Position numbers: made by a program. Below, piece by piece: positions 15,001 through 27,000 of a stretch of DNA of 64,000 nucleotides; positions within the stretch are counted from its first letter, which is position 1, and the number at the start of each line of letters is the position of its first letter. The DNA lies in assembly GCA_963705505.1 (NCBI GenBank), contig CAVPJU010000010.1:512001-576000 (forward strand). The letters run 5' to 3'. This stretch comes from an uncultured bacterium (GTDB lineage Bacteria > Desulfobacterota_D > UBA1144 > Nemesobacterales > UBA2774).

Positions 15001-18000
15001 GATAGAGGGCCTCAGACAATCGCCTTCCGCCCGGAGCCTGTTTATCTCGTTTCTAATCCTCTCCCTCGTCCACTTCCTGTTGTTCCTCGAGCTCTCATAA
15101 TCAATACCGCACGCTTCGAGAGCACTCCTCCATGAGCCGAATGCCTTGCACGCTTTTACATAAAGTGAGGTATGCTCCTTTGCGATATTAGCGGGCTTTT
15201 CCGCATCGGGACTGAAAATCCTGGTTATTTCTCTTTTCACTCTTTCCGCTCGCTTGGTCATGACAATCCATATAACAATATTTATGCCATACGTAAATGT
15301 CTGTTATCACGGGAGATATTGAGGATTCGTCCGCGGGAAATGTGTCTTGTTATCTGACACAGGACACTGGAAGAGTCGGAATTCCGCCCGTCTTTTTATT
15401 ATACAACGGAAATAATCCCCATTGCAATGACCGGACGTACCCGGAAGTCCGGTCACCCGGGCATCCGGGACCATACCGAAGGCTTATGATTCCGGACCCC
15501 TCACCCGCTGCAAATATCTCTCCGCTCGCTAATATAACTTATCATGAAAATTAGCTCTTTATTGTTGTTGTATTCCATGTTAGTTAATATCTAACAAGAG
15601 TCATTCTTAAAGGAGATGACCATGAAGGGTAGGGTGAGCATACTAAGCAAGGTAGTATTCCGTTCTTTTCTGTTCCGGGCTTTTATTTTTTCTTTCCTGC
15701 TGATATCAGTTTACGGTGGATGTAGCGGAGGTGGAGGAGGAGTGGTTCCCCCGCCGCCACCGCCGACTATAGAGGGAAACAAGCTCAATATCCAGATACT
15801 CAACGCTATCATAGGTCCGGACAACCATCCTGTAGCAACAATTAAAATCACAGATGAAAGGGGAAACCCTTTGCAACCTACCGACCTAGATCAATTACGC
15901 CTCATAATCGCGAGGATTGTGGACTCGGGTGAATACATAGACTACATAACGACTAACGAGGATGGAGCCATTCTGCCGTACCGTGAGGATAGTTCCTTGG
16001 GCACGTTCAACGGCCAGGGGGGAGGCGTTTATACCTATACGTTTGCATTTATGCTTCCGCAGGGCTATGACGGCAGCCAGACACACACGGTAGCACTTTA
16101 CGGGTCAAGAAAGGTAGGAAGCCAGACCTGGGTCTCAAACGCTACTTTCGACTTCGTGCCCAACGGGGGCGAAGTCAGGACAATAAGGGACATCGTGAGC
16201 GTCAACTCATGCAATAATTGCCATGACCCTCTTGCCGTACACGGAGGACGCAGGAGAGACCCGAAGCTCTGTATAACATGCCACACATCAAAGATAATCA
16301 ATCCCGATACAGGTCAAGAAGAGGATCTGGTCGACCCCGCTACAGGGAATAGTATCGCCTTTAAGGTTATGATACACAAGATACACATGGGCGAGAGCCT
16401 ACCGAGCGTTATGGACGGCTTTCCCTATATGATAGGTAATAGCGACTTCTCGAGCGTAGTGTTCCCCCAGGACATAAGAAATTGCACGAAGTGCCACGAC
16501 GAGTCCCAAGCGTCCCAGGCTGACGACTATAAGAACGTCCCCACCAGGGCTGCCTGCGGCTCGTGCCACGACAACGTCGACTTCGCCACAGCTACCAATC
16601 ACCCCACGGTGCAGCTCAACGACAACAACTGCTCGGGATGTCATATACCGAGCTCGGGGAACGAATTCGATATATCGGTTACCGGAGCACATACAATACC
16701 GCTTAAATCAAAGACCCTCCCCGGAGTCGTTTTCGATATAGTGAGCGTGACTTCCGCGGAGACAGGCTCGAACAGGGTAGCCCCCGGTGAGCATGCCCAG
16801 GTGCTATTCAGCGTCAGAAACAATAATGGAGATGTTGTAAACCCTCAGGATCTCAATAGACTGTCTCTGACGATAGCGGGTCCCACTACAGATTACGATA
16901 TACAGGACTACCACGGCACAGGAGCGGTTCCGGGAGTAGATAACGTGCTCACAGAGAACGCCTTGAAAGCTTCAGACGGCCCCGACGCCGACGGCAACTT
17001 CGTTTACACATTTAAAGGCATGATCCCGTTGAACGGCTCAGGCACCTACGCGGTCGGCATAGAGGGCTACAAGACCGAGACGGTGGGCGGTGAGAACCAG
17101 ATACTAATCGAGGACGTAAGAGACGCGGGGCATAACGTAGTCAGCTACTTTGCCGTTACGGACCCGGTCCCGGTCCCGCGGAGGACGGTCGTCGACAACA
17201 ATACCGAAGACCAGTACTGCAACTCATGCCACGGGGAGTTCTCAAAGGACTTCAGCATCCACGGAGGCATCCGCAACAACACCCAATACTGCGTCCTCTG
17301 CCACAACCCTTCGAACGACGATATAAGCGTGAGGCCGGTCCCCGACTGGACGGGAAGCGACACTCCTACAACGACCTCGATCAATTTCAGGCAGATGATA
17401 CACAAGATACATACGGGCGAGAACCTTACCGTAACGCCTTACATAATCTACGGGTTCGGGGGAAGCCTGAATGACTTCAGCGACGTCCTCTTCCCGGGCA
17501 AGACGAATGACTGCGCCGATTGCCACGTGCCCAACACGAACATACTCGACCCGGGTATGGGCATACTGGGCCCTGGAATTTTACCGACCATCACCAGGGA
17601 GTTTACGAAGGTGGACGACGAGAACGTCGTTCTGAATACGTTCTCCTTGCAGCCGGTTATTACGGTCTGCACGTCCTGTCATGACGATGTAGGTGTAAAC
17701 GTCGCGGGGAATGCCCTTACGGGCGTGAACCACCTGGGAGGACCGCAGCCTGAGGGAGCGTGCATAAATTGCCACGCCGCGGGCGACCCTCTTGGCGCGG
17801 CGGAAGTGCATCTGGTTCCGCTCCCGTTTGATGAGCGTATAAACCGTCCCCAATAGGAATAGACCTAAGGACGAACCGAATATGAAAATGCTTGTCATGG
17901 TTATTCTGATGTCCTCACTGCTCACGCTAGTCTCGTGTGTGAGCAGTGAGGACGAGGGTCAGGACTGGGGCAATATACTTGCCGGCGTCGAGGGATTACA

Positions 18001-24000: not shown

Positions 24001-27000
24001 CCGGATAACGCGCTAGCGGGAAAAACAGTTAAAGTTGCCGGACAAGGTAATGTTTCAAATATCGCAAGAAGTTGTCAGGAATGTCACGGAAGTATTATCA
24101 AGTTTCTAAGAGACGAAAAAGGCCAAATAGTCCGTACCGGCTCTCAGAAAAAGCCTTTTATAGATCCTGATACATGGCCTAACAGCGGCATTGGCAGGTT
24201 TAATCCCGACGGCTCCAAAGGCTCGTGTCATGCATGTCACTCACGCCATGCGTTCCAGGCTGAGCTCTCCCGCTCACCCCAGACCTGTGGTAAATGTCAT
24301 ATGGGACCGGATTATACAGAGATTGAGACCTATAATGAATCGAAACACGGCATTCTATTTTACCCAAACCGTGAAAGGATGGACCTTGACAAGAGAGGCG
24401 AATGGGTATTGGGACGGGATTATTCGGCCGCTCCTACCTGTGCAACCTGCCATATTAGTTCTTACATGTCGGCTCAAGGATTTGTTCAGAGTGGTTCTCA
24501 TAATGTAGGCGAACGAATAAGCTGGAACCTTTTACCTGTAATAAGTACGAAAGTAAATCTTGTTGTTTATGAAGACGGTTATAGTGAGGACTATCCCGAA
24601 ACAAAGGAAACACCGAATATAGGCGATGAAATCATTACAACCGAGACAGTGGTTGAGAATGAAAAGGTTGTAAACAAACAAGTGAGAAGAAAAGTTTCAG
24701 ATGTTATAAGTTCGGATGATAGAAGAGAAAAGATGATAGGGGTTTGTCTGAACTGCCACAACGACACGTATATAGATAATTTTTACAATCAGTACGATAA
24801 GTTTGTCGAGTATTATAACAATATATTCGCTGAACCGGCACAGAATCTCATGGACAGTTTACAAGCCGACGGCTTAATAAACCCGGGAGCTCCACTTGAA
24901 AGCCAGGTACAATGGGCGTTCTGGGACTTATTGCATCGTGGGGGAAGACAAGCAAGGATTGGCGCAAGCATGATGGGGCCGAGTATAACACGACAGGGTA
25001 TGTATCAAGTTTCAGAAACCTTTTATTCGAAATTCCTCCCTGCAGTAATAAACGCAGCAGCACAGAAAGGTCCTGATATGGAGAAAAAATATCGCATGAT
25101 GGTGGATAAAGAGCTTTCGCGTCAAGATCGTACGTGGATTGAGGAACCACTGCTGAATAAAACAAAATCGCCCAAAAAAACTGATAAACAAGGCTATGAG
25201 AAATAGAGCGCTCTCGGCGTGGCATGGTATTATTATAACTCTATTTCTGGTGATGCCCGGAATAATTATTCCGGATTTATAAACAGGGATTCAAAATATT
25301 ATGAGGGTAAAAAACAATAAGAATTATGGACATTTATAACACACACTTCCGTATTTAAAAATAAACGTCTAAAGGAGAAGAAATCCAGTCATGTTCAAAG
25401 AGATAACAGATCTATTTGGAGTTACTGCGTCCAATGCCACAGGTTTAGTAAAAGGACTTAATGGGGGGATTGTTTCAGAAGATCCGGGAATGAGGCTTAT
25501 ATCATTCGTGGCTCTCGGTCTATGCCTCTTAACAATAGTTCTTGTCGTGTACAAACTTATATTCTTGCGAAGGGATTCTTCAATAGGTGTAACAACCAGA
25601 TGGATTTTTTTGATCACGTTTATAATCCTTTCCCCGCTGACTTATTTCATTAGTTTCGGCATTGGAATTGAAAAATCAAAGCCCGTTGAATTCTGTAACA
25701 ACTGCCATATAATGAACAGTCACGTGGAAGACATGAAGGACCCCGATAGCGAAAGCATTGCTTCCCTTCATTATAATAATCGCTGGATTTCCGACGACCA
25801 ATGTTACACCTGTCATTCGGATTACGGGCTTTATGGAGCAGTCGGAGCAAAATTTGACGGCATCAGGCACATAATGGATTACTACGTTATGGGTTATCCG
25901 AAGAAACTAAAGATACGGGGCACCTATAACAACGAGAGATGTCTTTTCTGCCATGCCCCTGTCGCATCTTATCAAGAAGTTAAAGAACATCAAGATTATG
26001 CGGCGGAAATCAAATCGAGTAAACAGTCTTGTTTCGGTTTAGACTGTCACGTTTCTCCCCACCCTGATGAAACAAAGGAAATAGAGGAAACCTGGAGGAC
26101 GAAATGAATTCAAAAACAAATTATTTTAATGTATTTGTAATAATTGCCGGCACGCTAAACATCTTGGGAATGATTTTAATCATTATTCCTGTAGTTGAAC
26201 TTACCCCGCTTACACTGATTATCTCTGCAGTTTTTGGGGGAGGTTTAGTGATACTTTCAATTGCTATATACGCCGCAGTTGTAACAAGGGATCTTATAAG
26301 ACGTGGCATCCTCTAGCAGAGGATCTCCGCTCATATACGGGTTCTGCACTAATCCTCCGCTCCTTATGAATTTCCTCCCCCTTCAAGGGGGAGGACTAAG
26401 GTGGGGGTGATGAATCCCCCTTCATCCTCACACGCTTGGCGTGTTTTTACGATTTCTGCGGGGCTTCGTGAATTTCAGAGGGCGCAATACAGACCATAAC
26501 CGCTGAGGGTCTCTGATTGAAGATACCGGACCTCTCTCAAGTCATATCATTCGATATTTTTATAGAGGAACCTGACGAGGTCGGTAGTGGTTACTATCCC
26601 TGTGAGGTCGCCTTTTGCGTTAACGATCATGATGGAATGAAGGGAGCTGTCCGAGAGAATCTTCGCAGCGTCCTTGAGTGAAGAGTCCTCATCGAATATG
26701 ACGAGCTTGCCGGTCATGACGTCCTTGATGTTATAGGTGTGGTCGAGGAGCGTGTCGAGCATCCTCGTGTCGGTGGAATCGAAATCGAATATCAGCTTGA
26801 ATATGTCCTGCGTCGAGATAATCCCCACCGGCTTCTTACCCTTGAGCACAGGGACGTGGTGTATTGTGTTCTCCCTGAATATCCTCGCCACGGCACTCAG
26901 GTTCTGGTTATCGTGCACGGAAATGACATCCGCGCTCATTATCTCCTTTACCTTAACGTTCTCAATCATAATCCGTCCCTCGCATCTTATTTTTTGCTAT

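What a model noticed while it worked through the whole genome (the two positions that open the first line are those of the whole stretch)
15622..26316. Compact porin-cytochrome gene cluster: MtrC-type decahaem, an unnamed 22-strand barrel with a heptahaem plug, joined to [...]
One same-strand run of twelve genes looks like a complete wire for moving electrons across the outer membrane, in a lineage (Nemesobacterales) for which none is described: g02431 OmcA/MtrC-family decahaem (10 CxxCH), g02432 (106-aa orphan), g02433 (433 aa, no family; modelled as a ~22-strand outer-membrane barrel with signal peptide), g02434 (206 aa, 7 CxxCH), g02435 (4 CxxCH), two monohaem cytochromes, Rieske protein and cytochrome b, an octahaem HAO-like cytochrome (g02440) and a NapC/NirT quinol dehydrogenase (g02441). 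Barrel and heptahaem are far smaller than MtrB/MtrA and no Pfam, NCBIfam or Swiss-Prot entry names them, yet a complex model puts the C-terminal half of the heptahaem insid [...]
Evidence so far: TIGR03507 425 bits (cut 209) for g02431; haem counts call 101; gene order call 102. g02433: no Pfam over cut, NCBIfam at E<=1 names neither it nor g02434; 98 relatives in 5.8 billion proteins, all hypothetical; AlphaFold2 on a 26-row alignment pLDDT 75.5, pTM 0.62, 22 long strands; best Foldseek PDB hits are outer-membrane barrels, E 2e-10 to 1e-6, TM 0.35-0.54. predict_complex barrel + g02434: ipSAE 0.75 (runs 0.77, 0.62, 0.75), best of 3 controls 0.00; the mark was reached by 116 of 157 solved and 2 of 215 mismatched pairs; runs share >=78% of contacts, partner pLDDT >=64. 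Scan of one genome per species gave 28 loci; in the 24 with a whole barrel gene (4 truncated left out) tblastn finds t [...]
(Added by a program. Inside this text positions count along the whole contig: contig position 512,001 is position 1 of the stretch shown here. "Call 12" and the like, gene names such as g00115 and contig names such as C1 are that model's own, and its searches are not shown. The text may have been shortened before it was handed on; [...] marks where a part breaks off. The agent that wrote the report below was given it as the finding of a first reader that could run no searches.)

Follow-up and report, generated by a model that had tools for sequence, protein, structure and literature searches.

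The report
Pcc-type outer-membrane electron conduit operon
A soil and sediment bacterium of the Dadabacteria carries a compact operon for a cytochrome wire threaded through an outer-membrane barrel, a member of the known porin-cytochrome (Pcc) kind that here is capped by a Shewanella-type decahaem cytochrome.

Summary
Twelve same-strand genes lie at 15616-26316, with the stated haem counts and a 22-strand barrel.

- **Not an unnamed system.** The barrel and heptahaem are a Pcc-type porin-cytochrome pair. FeGenie's 2020 data sheet already lists their 85-86% identical orthologues in a Dadabacteria genome as homologues of Pcc proteins (E 5e-19 and 7e-44).
- **Profile test here.** My barrel and heptahaem profiles found porin plus adjacent cytochrome pairs in 10 of 10 Pcc-like loci of another phylum. 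They matched 0 of 15 other multihaem ORFs in those loci.
- **Size.** Small size is the published hallmark of Pcc: 18-22 strands and 5-14 haems.
- **Conserved unit.** Seven genes recur: MtrC/OmcA-type decahaem lipoprotein, dihaem lipoprotein (the supposed orphan), barrel, heptahaem lipoprotein, tetrahaem, monohaem and an NrfH-like quinol dehydrogenase.
- **Later insertion.** The second monohaem, Rieske, cytochrome b and octahaem genes form a low-GC block behind a strong hairpin. It occurs in 4 of 120 genomes of the phylum.
- **Complex model.** It places the heptahaem's C-terminal half in the barrel (ipSAE 0.85, best control 0.00).
- **Fusions.** Natural multihaem-barrel fusions exist.

Direction of electron flow is untested. 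This is a new variant of a known kind, of moderate interest.

The parts
15616..17856 (+). OmcA/MtrC-family decahaem c-type cytochrome, lipoprotein (lipobox ...GGC at residue 36); proposed cell-surface cap
   Evidence: TIGR03507 425.5 bits (cut-off 209.3) over profile 7-672 of 672, and PF22113 twice. 10 CxxCH. Best solved relatives are MtrF 3pmq E 2.3e-30 and MtrC 6r2q_C E 7.5e-16. Present upstream in 23 of 23 related loci with sequence there.
17882..18202 (+). 106-aa dihaem lipoprotein cytochrome (CFACH, CPICH; lipobox LVSC); role unknown, possibly an adaptor between heptahaem and decahaem
   Evidence: 2 CxxCH. Two CxxCH and a lipobox-like Cys in 24 of 24 orthologues. No family named.
18211..19512 (+). 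433-aa 22-strand outer-membrane barrel with signal peptide; Pcc-type porin
   Evidence: AlphaFold2 pLDDT 82, pTM 0.71, 22 strands. VIA Z 20.7-15 to 22-strand barrels, MtrB Z 16.1. Orthologue listed as Pcc porin homologue E 5e-19. The profile finds porins of 10 Pcc-like loci.
19509..20132 (+). 207-aa heptahaem lipoprotein cytochrome (lipobox LAAC); proposed in-barrel wire. Start overlaps the barrel's stop codon
   Evidence: 7 CxxCH and 7 further invariant His. 7 CxxCH in all 23 full-length orthologues that could be extracted. ipSAE 0.85 with the barrel, controls 0.00, contacts at residues 95-96 and 124-207. Orthologue listed as Pcc cytochrome homologue E 7e-44.
20122..20703 (+). 193-aa tetrahaem cytochrome with signal peptide; proposed periplasmic relay
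   Evidence: 4 CxxCH. PF09699 38.5 bits and PF14522 33.9 bits. 4 CxxCH in 24 of 24 orthologues.
20670..21146 (+). 158-aa monohaem class-I cytochrome c with signal peptide; last gene of the high-GC unit
   Evidence: PF00034 33.9 bits. Adjacent to the tetrahaem gene in 20 of 24 loci.
21217..21263 (+). Perfect 20-22 bp hairpin followed by a T-rich run in the 204-nt gap at the GC break; terminator-like or regulatory
   Evidence: Terminator-like scan hit. RNA fold -30.7 kcal/mol, z -7.95. Core palindrome conserved in L032 and L001, and the intergenic region is 92% identical.
21351..21851 (+). 166-aa monohaem cytochrome c, paralogue of 20670-21146; first gene of the low-GC inserted block
   Evidence: PF00034 37.4 bits. 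GC 0.39. Tandem copies seen only in the window, L001, L008/L032 and L030.
21987..22502 (+). Rieske [2Fe-2S] protein
   Evidence: PF00355 44 bits, cut-off 20.3.
22505..23581 (+). Cytochrome b (b6/petB plus petD-like C-terminus in one protein)
   Evidence: PF00033 186 bits and PF00032 40 bits. ExtP model 219.8 bits, below its cut-off of 290.
23608..25206 (+). 532-aa membrane-anchored octahaem cytochrome of the hydroxylamine-oxidoreductase (HAO) fold family
   Evidence: 8 CxxCH. PF13447 82.5 bits. Best solved relative 4qo5_A E 1.5e-46, HAOs E 1e-15 to 1e-20. In 4 of 120 genomes of the phylum.
25391..26107 (+). NrfH/NapC/NirT-family membrane quinol dehydrogenase (3 CxxCH + CX4CH); divergent copy of the NrfH-like gene that ends the conserved core elsewhere
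   Evidence: PF03264 37.9 bits, cut-off 24.1. The same motif set in 21 of 21 homologues. Only 47-56% identical to the copies of other loci, and on a 0.67 branch with L008/L032.
26104..26316 (+). 70-aa hydrophobic protein whose start overlaps the stop of the NrfH-like gene
   Evidence: ORF list. 84% identical copy in the same place in L032.

Best explanation
The region encodes a Pcc-type porin-cytochrome conduit that carries electrons across the outer membrane. A lineage-specific Rieske/cytochrome b module has been added to it.

**Core unit.** The core is 15616-21146 plus an NrfH-like gene. Quinol is oxidised, or quinone reduced, at the inner membrane by the NrfH-like tetrahaem protein. The periplasmic tetrahaem and monohaem cytochromes carry the electrons.

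**Barrel crossing.** The heptahaem is lipid-anchored at its N-terminus, presumably in the inner leaflet of the outer membrane. Its C-terminal four-haem half is threaded through the 22-strand barrel and reaches the external mouth.

**Surface.** There the electrons pass to the MtrC/OmcA-type decahaem lipoprotein, perhaps through the small dihaem lipoprotein. The decahaem contacts insoluble or large acceptors such as Fe(III) and Mn(IV) oxides or humics.

**Added block.** The low-GC block 21351-25206 (second monohaem c, Rieske, cytochrome b, octahaem), with the divergent NrfH-like gene and the 70-aa gene behind it, is a later addition. It gives a second quinol:cytochrome c route.

**Shown in silico:** gene content, haem motifs, barrel fold, conserved pairing, homology to Pcc pairs, and a confident complex model.

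**Inferred:** localisation, the order of carriers, the orientation of the heptahaem in the barrel, the role of the dihaem, and outward flow (about 0.55 outward against 0.3 inward, within the conduit reading).
For: **Gene content**
- Haem motifs and families.
- Barrel: 22 strands, pLDDT 82. It is best matched by 22-strand barrels that need a plug (Z about 20, rmsd 3.2-3.9 A over about 355 residues).

**Conserved pairing**
- Heptahaem and tetrahaem genes follow the barrel in 24 of 24 loci with downstream sequence.
- The dihaem gene precedes the barrel in 24 of 24 loci, and the decahaem gene in 23 of 23.
- An NrfH-like gene follows the monohaem gene in 16 loci.
- Barrel, heptahaem, tetrahaem and monohaem genes overlap by 4, 11 and 34 nt.

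**Complex model**
- ipSAE 0.85; best of 3 controls 0.00.
- The mark was reached by 116 of 157 solved and 2 of 215 mismatched pairs. These counts hold only roughly because my own alignments were used.
- The runs share at least 76% of contacts, and partner pLDDT is at least 62.
- Contacts fall on alternate, inward-facing residues of most strands and on loops 159-165 and 268-275.
- Conserved barrel columns are enriched in the interface: 43 of 103 against 27 expected.

**Fusions.** P0129 (4 haems + barrel), P0130 (12 haems + barrel) and P0174 are single proteins. Their cytochrome part shares the heptahaem's dihaem repeat (BLASTP E 5e-14).

**Homology to Pcc**
- FeGenie data sheet rows 532-533.
- Ten loci were fetched from the 15 genomes of another phylum that carry weak A1-type barrel matches. 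In 10 of 10, the ORF next to the barrel matches the heptahaem profile (5, 8 or 10 haems). None of 15 other multihaem ORFs in those loci does.
- In a distant MAG, consecutive locus tags HY540_06210 and HY540_06215 carry the two homologues.

**Insertion**
- GC is 0.39-0.44 against 0.49-0.54, with a hairpin between the units.
- In L006 the flanking genes are 84% and 88% identical, but the single NrfH-like gene between them is only 51% identical.
- The octahaem gene occurs in 4 of 120 genomes.

**Junction.** It is confirmed in independent assemblies (L001, L008/L032, L030) and by a metagenome contig that bridges 21005-21343.
Against: - Nothing is experimental. No RNA run holds the region, so expression is unknown.
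- The models carry no haems, and the heptahaem's own confidence in the complex is modest (pLDDT 62-65).
- A high complex score may partly reflect general learning of plugged barrels, and inward-facing barrel residues tend to be conserved anyway.
I could not align against named Geobacter or Thermovibrio proteins myself. Their E-values are for a small set of ORFs.
- Lipoprotein sorting rules are known mainly from E. coli, so the side of the outer membrane on which the three lipoproteins sit is not established.
- Several features fit inward flow as well as outward flow: a class-I monohaem cytochrome c in the core, three haem-copper oxidase genes in the genome, and the added Rieske/cytochrome b module.
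Confidence: 0.8

Rival explanations
1. The same conduit runs inward. It takes electrons from extracellular Fe(II), Mn(II) or reduced humics and passes them through the monohaem cytochrome c to haem-copper oxidases. Electrons could also go uphill through the NrfH-like protein or the Rieske/cytochrome b complex to the quinone pool. This is what is proposed for the MtoAB-MtoD-CymA clusters of iron oxidisers.
For: - A class-I monohaem cytochrome c is part of the core in 20 of 24 loci. It is weakly FixO/CcoO-like (PF02433 25.8 bits, below its cut-off).
- The genome has three haem-copper oxidase subunit I genes and no cytochrome bd.
- The added module is a Rieske/cytochrome b complex with a second monohaem c.
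- The arrangement monohaem c plus NapC/NirT next to a conduit resembles the mto cluster. This is recalled, not tested here.
Against: - Clusters thought to oxidise Fe(II) usually lack an MtrC-type surface cytochrome (PMC4245776, section 6). Here the decahaem is present in 23 of 23 loci.
- No RuBisCO large subunit was found in a genome that is 93.6% complete, so lithoautotrophy by that route is not supported.
- Redox potentials are unknown.
Confidence: 0.25
2. All twelve genes are one indivisible wire, newly seen and unnamed, in a lineage without any described conduit.
For: - Same strand and short gaps.
- The inserted block lies at the same site where contigs allow a check: the window, L008/L032 and L030 (L031 is too short to tell, and L001 ends in the second monohaem gene).
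- A second subclade also has a Rieske/cytochrome b set after the conduit (L010, L011).
- No Pfam or NCBIfam model names the barrel.
Against: - The octahaem is in 4 of 120 genomes, against 25 of 120 for the barrel.
- There is a GC break and a hairpin between the units.
- 16 loci go straight from the monohaem gene to the NrfH-like gene.
- The pair is listed as a Pcc homologue in print for a Dadabacteria genome.
Confidence: 0.1
3. The barrel is an ordinary diffusion or uptake channel. The cytochromes are periplasmic enzymes for a soluble substrate such as a nitrogen or sulfur oxyanion, and no electrons cross the outer membrane.
For: - The fold alone does not tell function. The best matches are transporters and porins.
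- An HAO-family octahaem and an NrfH-like protein are typical of nitrogen-oxide metabolism.
Against: - The barrel has no plug domain of its own, yet it matches 22-strand barrels that carry one.
- Natural cytochrome-barrel fusions exist.
- Barrel and cytochrome are adjacent in 24 of 24 close loci and 10 of 10 distant loci.
- A surface-type MtrC/OmcA lipoprotein is present in 23 of 23 loci.
- The octahaem is absent from most loci.
Confidence: 0.05

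Closest known systems
Pcc porin-cytochrome clusters (Shi, Fredrickson & Zachara 2014, PMC4245776). Group III is Thermovibrio ammonificans, Desulfurobacterium thermolithotrophum and Denitrovibrio acetiphilus. The Geobacter representative is ombB-omaB-omcB.
   Same: - A porin-like barrel of 18-22 strands sits next to a small multihaem cytochrome of 5-14 haems, with an outer lipoprotein cytochrome in the cluster (sections 6, 8 and 9 read).
- Orthologues of barrel and heptahaem are listed as BLAST hits to Group III proteins (E 5e-19 and 7e-44; FeGenie Data_Sheet_8).
- My profiles find porin/cytochrome pairs in 10 of 10 Pcc-like loci.
   Different: - The outer cytochrome is an OmcA/MtrC-family decahaem rather than an OmcB-type protein.
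- The in-barrel candidate is a lipoprotein with 7 haems.
- A conserved dihaem lipoprotein lies between the decahaem and the barrel.
- The inner-membrane partner is NrfH-like, not the fused b/c-type protein described for Thermovibrio and Desulfurobacterium.
- Close relatives (40% identity or more) carry only names from Dadabacteria/Thermodesulfobacteriota and Binatia, plus a few MAG labels from other groups that look like mis-binning.
MtrCAB of Shewanella (structure 6R2Q)
   Same: - The overall logic is a surface decahaem lipoprotein of the OmcA/MtrC family (TIGR03507 425.5 bits), a cytochrome inside a barrel, and a NapC/NirT-type quinol dehydrogenase.
- The modelled orientation, with the cytochrome's C-terminal end at the outer mouth, matches what I recall of MtrA in MtrB.
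   Different: - The barrel has 22 strands and 433 aa. It gives no sequence match to MtrB (Pfam and PDB profile searches), and its structural Z of 16.1 is lower than for generic 22-strand barrels.
- The inner cytochrome has 7 haems in 207 aa and is a lipoprotein. It gives no DmsE/MtrA family match at E<=0.1.
Geobacter ExtABCD and ExtEFG clusters (Jimenez Otero et al. 2018, PMC6148476; passages read)
   Same: - A small lipoprotein cytochrome (pentahaem ExtC or ExtF) is encoded next to the barrel.
- Unnamed loci with this gene order (11-haem, barrel, 5-haem lipoprotein, lipoprotein cytochrome) match both my profiles (L035, L038, L039).
   Different: - That paper places ExtC and ExtF on the outer surface and states that Ext and OmcB components share no homology.
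- Here the corresponding protein is modelled inside the barrel, and profile matches link the families.
- I could not confirm that the unnamed loci are Geobacter's own.
Fused porin-cytochromes: Cyc2, and GM18_3465 of Geobacter sp. M18 (PMC4245776, section 7)
   Same: Distant members of this barrel superfamily are fused to 4 or 12 haem motifs at the N-terminus (P0129, P0130, P0174).
   Different: The window's barrel has no haem motif. Here the cytochrome is a separate, translationally coupled gene.
Rieske/cytochrome b complexes with an HAO-family octahaem subunit. Those of anammox Planctomycetota are recalled. The solved relative is 4QO5.
   Same: The gene order Rieske, cytochrome b, octahaem is also seen in a Planctomycetota contig (L027; 35%, 50% and 36% identity). 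The octahaem matches 4qo5_A at E 1.5e-46.
   Different: Here the set is inserted into a porin-cytochrome operon together with a duplicated monohaem c. Whether the octahaem is catalytic or only a wire was not tested.

Membership tests
Pcc porin-cytochrome system (Shi et al. 2014) | Porin-like outer-membrane protein with 18-22 predicted strands | tested here: met
   22 strands in the AlphaFold2 model, pLDDT 82. The range is from PMC4245776, section 8.
Pcc porin-cytochrome system (Shi et al. 2014) | Adjacent gene for a multihaem c-type cytochrome with 5-14 haem motifs that co-evolves with the porin | tested here: met
   7 CxxCH. Adjacent in 24 of 24 loci, and identities track those of the barrel (45-86% against 45-85%).
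Pcc porin-cytochrome system (Shi et al. 2014) | Outer-membrane (lipoprotein) multihaem cytochrome in the cluster | tested here: met
   Decahaem with a lipobox, in 23 of 23 loci.
Pcc porin-cytochrome system (Shi et al. 2014) | Sequence homology to recognised Pcc porins and cytochromes | tested here: met
   - Published BLAST for the 85-86% identical orthologues: E 5e-19 (porin) and 7e-44 (cytochrome).
- Here the A1 and A3 profiles match barrel plus neighbour in 10 of 10 Pcc-like loci and 0 of 15 other multihaem ORFs.
- Caveat: those loci are unnamed, and named Geobacter and Thermovibrio sequences could not be aligned here.
Pcc porin-cytochrome system (Shi et al. 2014) | [quoted passage not shown] | not testable with these tools
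   Needs biochemistry.
MtrCAB | OmcA/MtrC-family decahaem surface cytochrome | tested here: met
   TIGR03507 425.5 bits against a cut-off of 209.3. MtrF 3pmq E 2.3e-30.
MtrCAB | MtrB/PioB-family porin | tested here: not met
   - No MtrB/PioB family among Pfam matches at E<=0.1.
- The profile search of PDB sequences does not find 6r2q_B at E<=10.
- 22 strands.
- 6r2q_B scores Z 16.1, below many generic barrels.
MtrCAB | MtrA/DmsE-family periplasmic decahaem | tested here: not met
   The heptahaem has no TIGR03508 match at E<=0.1 and has 7, not 10, haem motifs.
Cyc2-type fused porin-cytochrome | Haem motif and barrel in one polypeptide | tested here: not met
   No CxxCH in the barrel. Fusions exist only among distant relatives.
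NapC/NirT/NrfH quinol dehydrogenases | N-terminal membrane helix and four haem sites of the family | tested here: met
   - PF03264 37.9 bits against a cut-off of 24.1.
- 3 CxxCH plus CX4CH in 21 of 21 homologues.
- The equivalogue models NrfH and NapC score below their cut-offs (45.8 against 134.2, and 29-30 against 310-349), so the protein is a family member without a named orthologue.
Rieske/cytochrome b complex | Rieske 2Fe-2S protein and cytochrome b encoded side by side | tested here: met
   PF00355 44 bits and PF00033 186 bits, with genes 2 nt apart.
Hydroxylamine oxidoreductase family octahaem | Eight haem motifs with the HAO core; catalytic haem with or without a tyrosine cross-link | tested here: inconclusive
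   8 CxxCH. PF13447 82.5 bits. 4qo5_A E 1.5e-46 and HAOs E about 1e-15. The cross-link tyrosine and the active site were not examined.

The most novel reading that the evidence does not exclude
The barrel and the small cytochrome encoded right beside it form one ancient superfamily that sequence profiles can recognise. It spans this Dadabacteria/Binatia operon, the OmbB/OmaB-type clusters, the ExtB/ExtC-type clusters, and the natural multihaem-barrel fusions.

In all of them the small cytochrome would be the subunit threaded through the barrel. It is often a lipoprotein and has been drawn on the cell surface in Geobacter models.

The outer cap would be freely exchangeable. A Shewanella-type MtrC/OmcA decahaem can then serve a Pcc-type pore, as seen here and in L042 of another phylum. 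This would unify conduits that the literature treats as unrelated.
Probability: 0.4. Interest if true: 0.6.

Novelty: new variant of a known kind. Interest (0 to 1): 0.4.

Why it matters
Porin-cytochrome conduits let bacteria respire minerals and electrodes.

This operon shows a complete route from quinol to cell surface in seven overlapping genes, in an uncultured group of wetland, sediment and soil bacteria. It mixes parts thought typical of two unrelated systems: a Pcc pore and wire with an Mtr-type cap.

It offers a small, tractable complex (433 + 207 aa) for structural and synthetic work. The profile links found here suggest that the Geobacter conduits, said to share no homology, have a common core.

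For the organism, it predicts a capacity to exchange electrons with iron or manganese minerals. That capacity has been mentioned for Dadabacteria only in one sentence and one data sheet.

Tried and rejected
- **Expression.** No RNA holder was listed for 17882-21900, so nothing can be said about expression.
- **Named Geobacter or Thermovibrio proteins.** I could not reach them. The Pcc membership test therefore rests on a published data sheet and on unnamed loci.
- **Word-index search with distant barrels** (A2). It gave only 11 proteins, none named usefully.
- **Cluster look-ups.** Ten distant barrels and ten distant cytochromes gave only 'hypothetical' or 'cytochrome c3 family' names.
- **ESM Atlas.** The nearest clusters are unnamed, from Zixibacteria, Myxococcota and Thermodesulfobacteriota.
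- **Metagenome scans for the context of distant barrels.** The A2 alignment was too diverse to search with. P0110 found nothing. P0259 gave one 1.5-kb contig without context.
- **PDB sequence searches.** Nothing relevant was found with the barrel profile or the heptahaem profile.
- **Rfam** on 15000-27000: only a chance miRNA-like match to the hairpin (E 0.65).
- **L027.** It was returned as a barrel relative (38 residues, E 2e-4), but this is spurious: no ORF there matches the A1 or A3 profile. It is kept only for its Rieske, cytochrome b, octahaem gene order.
- **Independence of the inserted block.** The idea looked supported because G080 and G082 have the octahaem but no barrel match. But the G082 contig ends inside a tetrahaem gene next to the block, so absence of the conduit there cannot be claimed.
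- **Assembly chimaera at the GC break.** Rejected, because the same junction is in L001, L008/L032 and L030 and in a metagenome contig.
- **Literature.** Searches for a description of this architecture found none beyond FeGenie and a count of one CbcL-type homologue in Dadabacteria (PMC6295460): Dadabacteria or Nemesobacterales with multihaem; MtrC, decaheme, porin-cytochrome; heptaheme, lipoprotein; Thermovibrio, MtrC. Subscription journals and bioRxiv supplements were not searchable.

Full report
**What is there**

Twelve ORFs lie head to tail on the + strand from 15616 to 26316.

| Gene (start) | Family evidence | Haem motifs |
|---|---|---|
| 15616 | OmcA/MtrC decahaem; TIGR03507 425.5 bits, cut-off 209.3; lipobox | 10 |
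| 17882 | 106 aa, lipobox, no family | 2 |
| 18211 | 433 aa, signal peptide, no family over cut-off | 0 |
| 19509 | 207 aa, lipobox | 7 |
| 20122 | signal peptide | 4 |
| 20670 and 21351 | two paralogous class-I cytochromes c | 1 each |
| 21987 | Rieske protein | 0 |
| 22505 | cytochrome b | 0 |
| 23608 | membrane-anchored octahaem | 8 |
| 25391 | NrfH/NapC/NirT-family protein | 3 CxxCH + 1 CX4CH |
| 26104 | 70-aa hydrophobic protein | not counted |

The one exception is the 106-aa 'orphan', which is a dihaem lipoprotein cytochrome. Both haem motifs and the lipobox cysteine are kept in 24 of 24 orthologues.

**The barrel**

- The protein has 99 relatives at E<=1e-3 among 5.8 billion sequences, down to 40% identity. 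The named ones are 'hypothetical' proteins of Dadabacteria/Thermodesulfobacteriota or Binatia.
- A profile of 30 of them finds 218 representatives among 1.84 billion.
- AlphaFold2 on that alignment gives pLDDT 82.0, pTM 0.71 and 22 strands with short loops and no plug domain.
- The best structural matches are the 22-strand barrels of TonB-dependent transporters (Z 20.7-18, rmsd 3.2-3.9 A over about 355 residues). MtrB (6r2q_B) scores Z 16.1.
- Foldseek gives only generic barrels (E 4.4e-10 and weaker, TM 0.30-0.57).
- Sequence profiles find nothing relevant in the PDB.

**The barrel and the heptahaem belong together.** Four lines of evidence agree.

1. *Conserved adjacency.* In 26 related loci from one genome per species (a 27th, L027, is spurious), the heptahaem and tetrahaem genes follow the barrel in 24 of 24 loci that have sequence downstream. 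The dihaem gene precedes it in 24 of 24, and the decahaem gene in 23 of 23. The start of the heptahaem gene overlaps the barrel's stop codon, and the next two genes overlap as well.

2. *Complex model with alignments for both chains.* The median ipSAE is 0.85 (runs 0.86, 0.82, 0.85) and the best of 3 controls is 0.00.
   - The mark was reached by 116 of 157 solved and 2 of 215 mismatched pairs. These counts hold only roughly because my own alignments were used.
   - The runs share at least 76% of contacts, and partner pLDDT is at least 62.
   - The contacts involve heptahaem residues 95-96 and 124-207, the part with haem motifs 4-7. On the barrel they involve alternate residues of most strands plus loops 159-165 and 268-275.
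   - The most confident pairs join heptahaem 171-193 to residues at what standard barrel topology makes the external ends of strands 15-20. So I infer that the C-terminus reaches the outer mouth and the lipidated N-terminal half hangs into the periplasm.
   - Conserved barrel columns are enriched in the interface: 43 of 103 against 27 expected. Lumen-facing residues tend to be conserved anyway, so this is weak support.

3. *Natural fusions.* Among distant relatives of the barrel there are single proteins with an N-terminal multihaem domain: P0129 (4 haems), P0130 (12 haems) and P0174. That domain shares the heptahaem's repeat, roughly H-x2-W-x3-H-G/A, then CxxCH, then CxxCH (BLASTP E 5e-14).

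4. *A distant MAG.* The homologues of the two proteins carry consecutive locus tags, HY540_06210 and HY540_06215.

**It is a Pcc system, and this is in print**

Shi et al. 2014 (PMC4245776; abstract and sections 6-9 read) define Pcc clusters. A Pcc cluster has a porin-like protein of 18-22 strands, a neighbouring cytochrome of 5-14 haems that co-evolves with it, and variable outer cytochromes that do not. They note that these parts are much smaller than MtrB and MtrA.

FeGenie (PMC7005843) states that Ca. Dadabacteria encode porin-cytochrome operons homologous to Geobacter's. Its Data_Sheet_8 lists two genes of contig MFCJ01000044.1, the same record as my L001:
- Gene _4, the heptahaem (86% identical to the window's), hits the Pcc cytochrome of Thermovibrio ammonificans at E 7e-44.
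- Gene _5, the barrel (85% identical), hits the Pcc porin of Desulfurobacterium thermolithotrophum at E 5e-19.

Only those two rows exist for the contig. The decahaem next door was not reported.

- In 401 genomes of the phylum that holds the Binatia-labelled relative, the barrel profile gave 15 weak matches besides the orthologue.
- I fetched ten of these loci. In 10 of 10, the ORF immediately after the barrel matches the heptahaem profile (E 1e-8 to 1e-18 within that small set; 5, 8 or 10 haems; several with a lipobox).
- None of 15 other multihaem ORFs in the same loci matches.
- Their gene orders are those described for Geobacter clusters: barrel, 8-haem, large cytochrome; or 11-haem, barrel, 5-haem lipoprotein, lipoprotein cytochrome (PMC6148476, passages read).
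- One locus (L042) has two OmcA/MtrC-like decahaems (TIGR03507 164 and 186 bits, below the cut-off of 209) just upstream of the barrel. The Mtr-type cap on a Pcc-type pore is therefore not unique to this lineage.

**What is conserved and what was added**

The recurrent order is decahaem, dihaem, barrel, heptahaem, tetrahaem, monohaem, NrfH-like. The monohaem gene is adjacent in 20 of 24 loci, and the NrfH-like gene comes directly after it in 16. All 21 NrfH-like proteins share 3 CxxCH plus a CX4CH.

In the window, a 5-kb stretch separates the first monohaem gene from the flanking CBS-domain gene.
- Its GC is 0.39-0.44, against 0.49-0.54 for the six genes before it.
- It begins after a perfect 20-22 bp hairpin with a T-rich tail (21217-21263).
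- In the close relative L006, the flanking genes are 84% and 88% identical, but between them there is only one NrfH-like gene, 51% identical to the window's.
- The octahaem gene occurs in 4 of 120 genomes of the phylum (G000, G076, G080, G082). The barrel occurs in 25 of 120, all in three families of the window's own order: 8 of 9 other species of its genus, and 0 of 70 in the other six families.
- In genus g3 (L030), the block lies between the monohaem gene and an NrfH-like gene of the common type. In the window and G076, the NrfH-like gene is a long-branch form and is followed by the 70-aa gene.

The block is thus a later insertion and most likely a separate transcription unit. Two observations still point to a functional link. 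In the cases whose contigs reach far enough to show it, the block sits at the same site. And another subclade (L010, L011) has a different Rieske/cytochrome b set with pentahaems after the conduit. I read this as inner-membrane modules being swapped on a constant outer-membrane core.

The junction is not an assembly artefact.

**How it probably works**

Electrons move between the quinone pool and the cell surface in these steps:
1. NrfH-like protein (and, in this genome, also the Rieske/cytochrome b complex with its octahaem).
2. Periplasmic tetrahaem and monohaem cytochromes.
3. Heptahaem inside the barrel.
4. Dihaem lipoprotein (uncertain).
5. Decahaem at the surface.

Seven further invariant histidines in the heptahaem fit bis-His ligation of all seven haems.

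Direction is open.
- *For outward flow:* the MtrC-type cap is constant, whereas clusters linked to Fe(II) oxidation usually lack one.
- *For inward flow:* a class-I cytochrome c sits in the core, and the genome has three haem-copper oxidases.
- No RuBisCO large subunit and no cytochrome bd were found in the 93.6% complete genome.

Near-identical contigs occur in wetland, freshwater-sediment and soil metagenomes. This is a weak hint of habitat only.

**Verdict**

The finding is real and its central idea holds. But it is a member of the known Pcc kind that has already been flagged, briefly, for Dadabacteria. Three things are new here:
- the full seven-gene architecture with an Mtr-type cap and two small lipoprotein cytochromes;
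- the evidence that the small cytochrome is the in-barrel subunit;
- the profile-level link between conduit families said to be unrelated.

Noticed in passing
proteins P0129, P0130, P0174 (no locus): Distant relatives of the barrel are fused at the N-terminus to multihaem domains: 4, 12 and 4 CxxCH; 575, 723 and 423 aa, the last truncated. They are multihaem analogues of Cyc2. Their genomic context could not be fetched.
   Followed up: partly
This is a second, independent Mtr-cap/Pcc-pore combination.
   Followed up: partly
window 21147-21350: The 204-nt spacer between the two monohaem genes is 92% identical in three genomes (window, L032, L001). That is more conserved than the proteins on either side (78-83%). 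Only the inner 11-12 bp of the hairpin is kept in the relatives. It may hold the promoter or a regulatory site of the inserted block.
   Followed up: partly
window 26369-26413: A GC-rich hairpin lies after the last gene (26374-26394; 8-bp arms, loop TTCAA). It is covered at very high depth (up to 151) by metagenome contigs that diverge on both sides. This suggests a short repeat shared by many genomes. There is only one copy in the window and no tRNA.
   Followed up: partly
L010:3577-10647 and L011:6788-7898: In another Dadabacteria subclade the conduit lacks the NrfH-like gene. In L010 it is followed by a monohaem, a pentahaem, Rieske, cytochrome b, a second pentahaem, a monohaem and a 9-haem protein. 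In L011 only Rieske and cytochrome b were seen.
   Followed up: no
window 15616-17856: Apart from the 20 haem cysteines and the lipobox cysteine, I see no other cysteine in the decahaem (read). The cysteine pair reported to control flavin reduction in Shewanella MtrC therefore appears absent. That paper (PMC9973256) was seen only as a title and abstract in a search listing.
   Followed up: no
L027:3305-6601: A Planctomycetota contig has Rieske, cytochrome b and an octahaem in the same order as window 21987-25206 (35%, 50% and 36% identity). This is a possible hint at the source of the inserted block.
   Followed up: no
G000:C10:482652-483944 and two other contigs: The genome has three haem-copper oxidase subunit I genes, one about 29 kb upstream of the window. 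No RuBisCO large subunit and no cytochrome bd were found.
   Followed up: no
L006:7557-9646 and L016:7632-9684: In two relatives the decahaem gene gives two abutting tblastn pieces in different frames. This is either a frameshift or an assembly error. The window's copy is intact.
   Followed up: no
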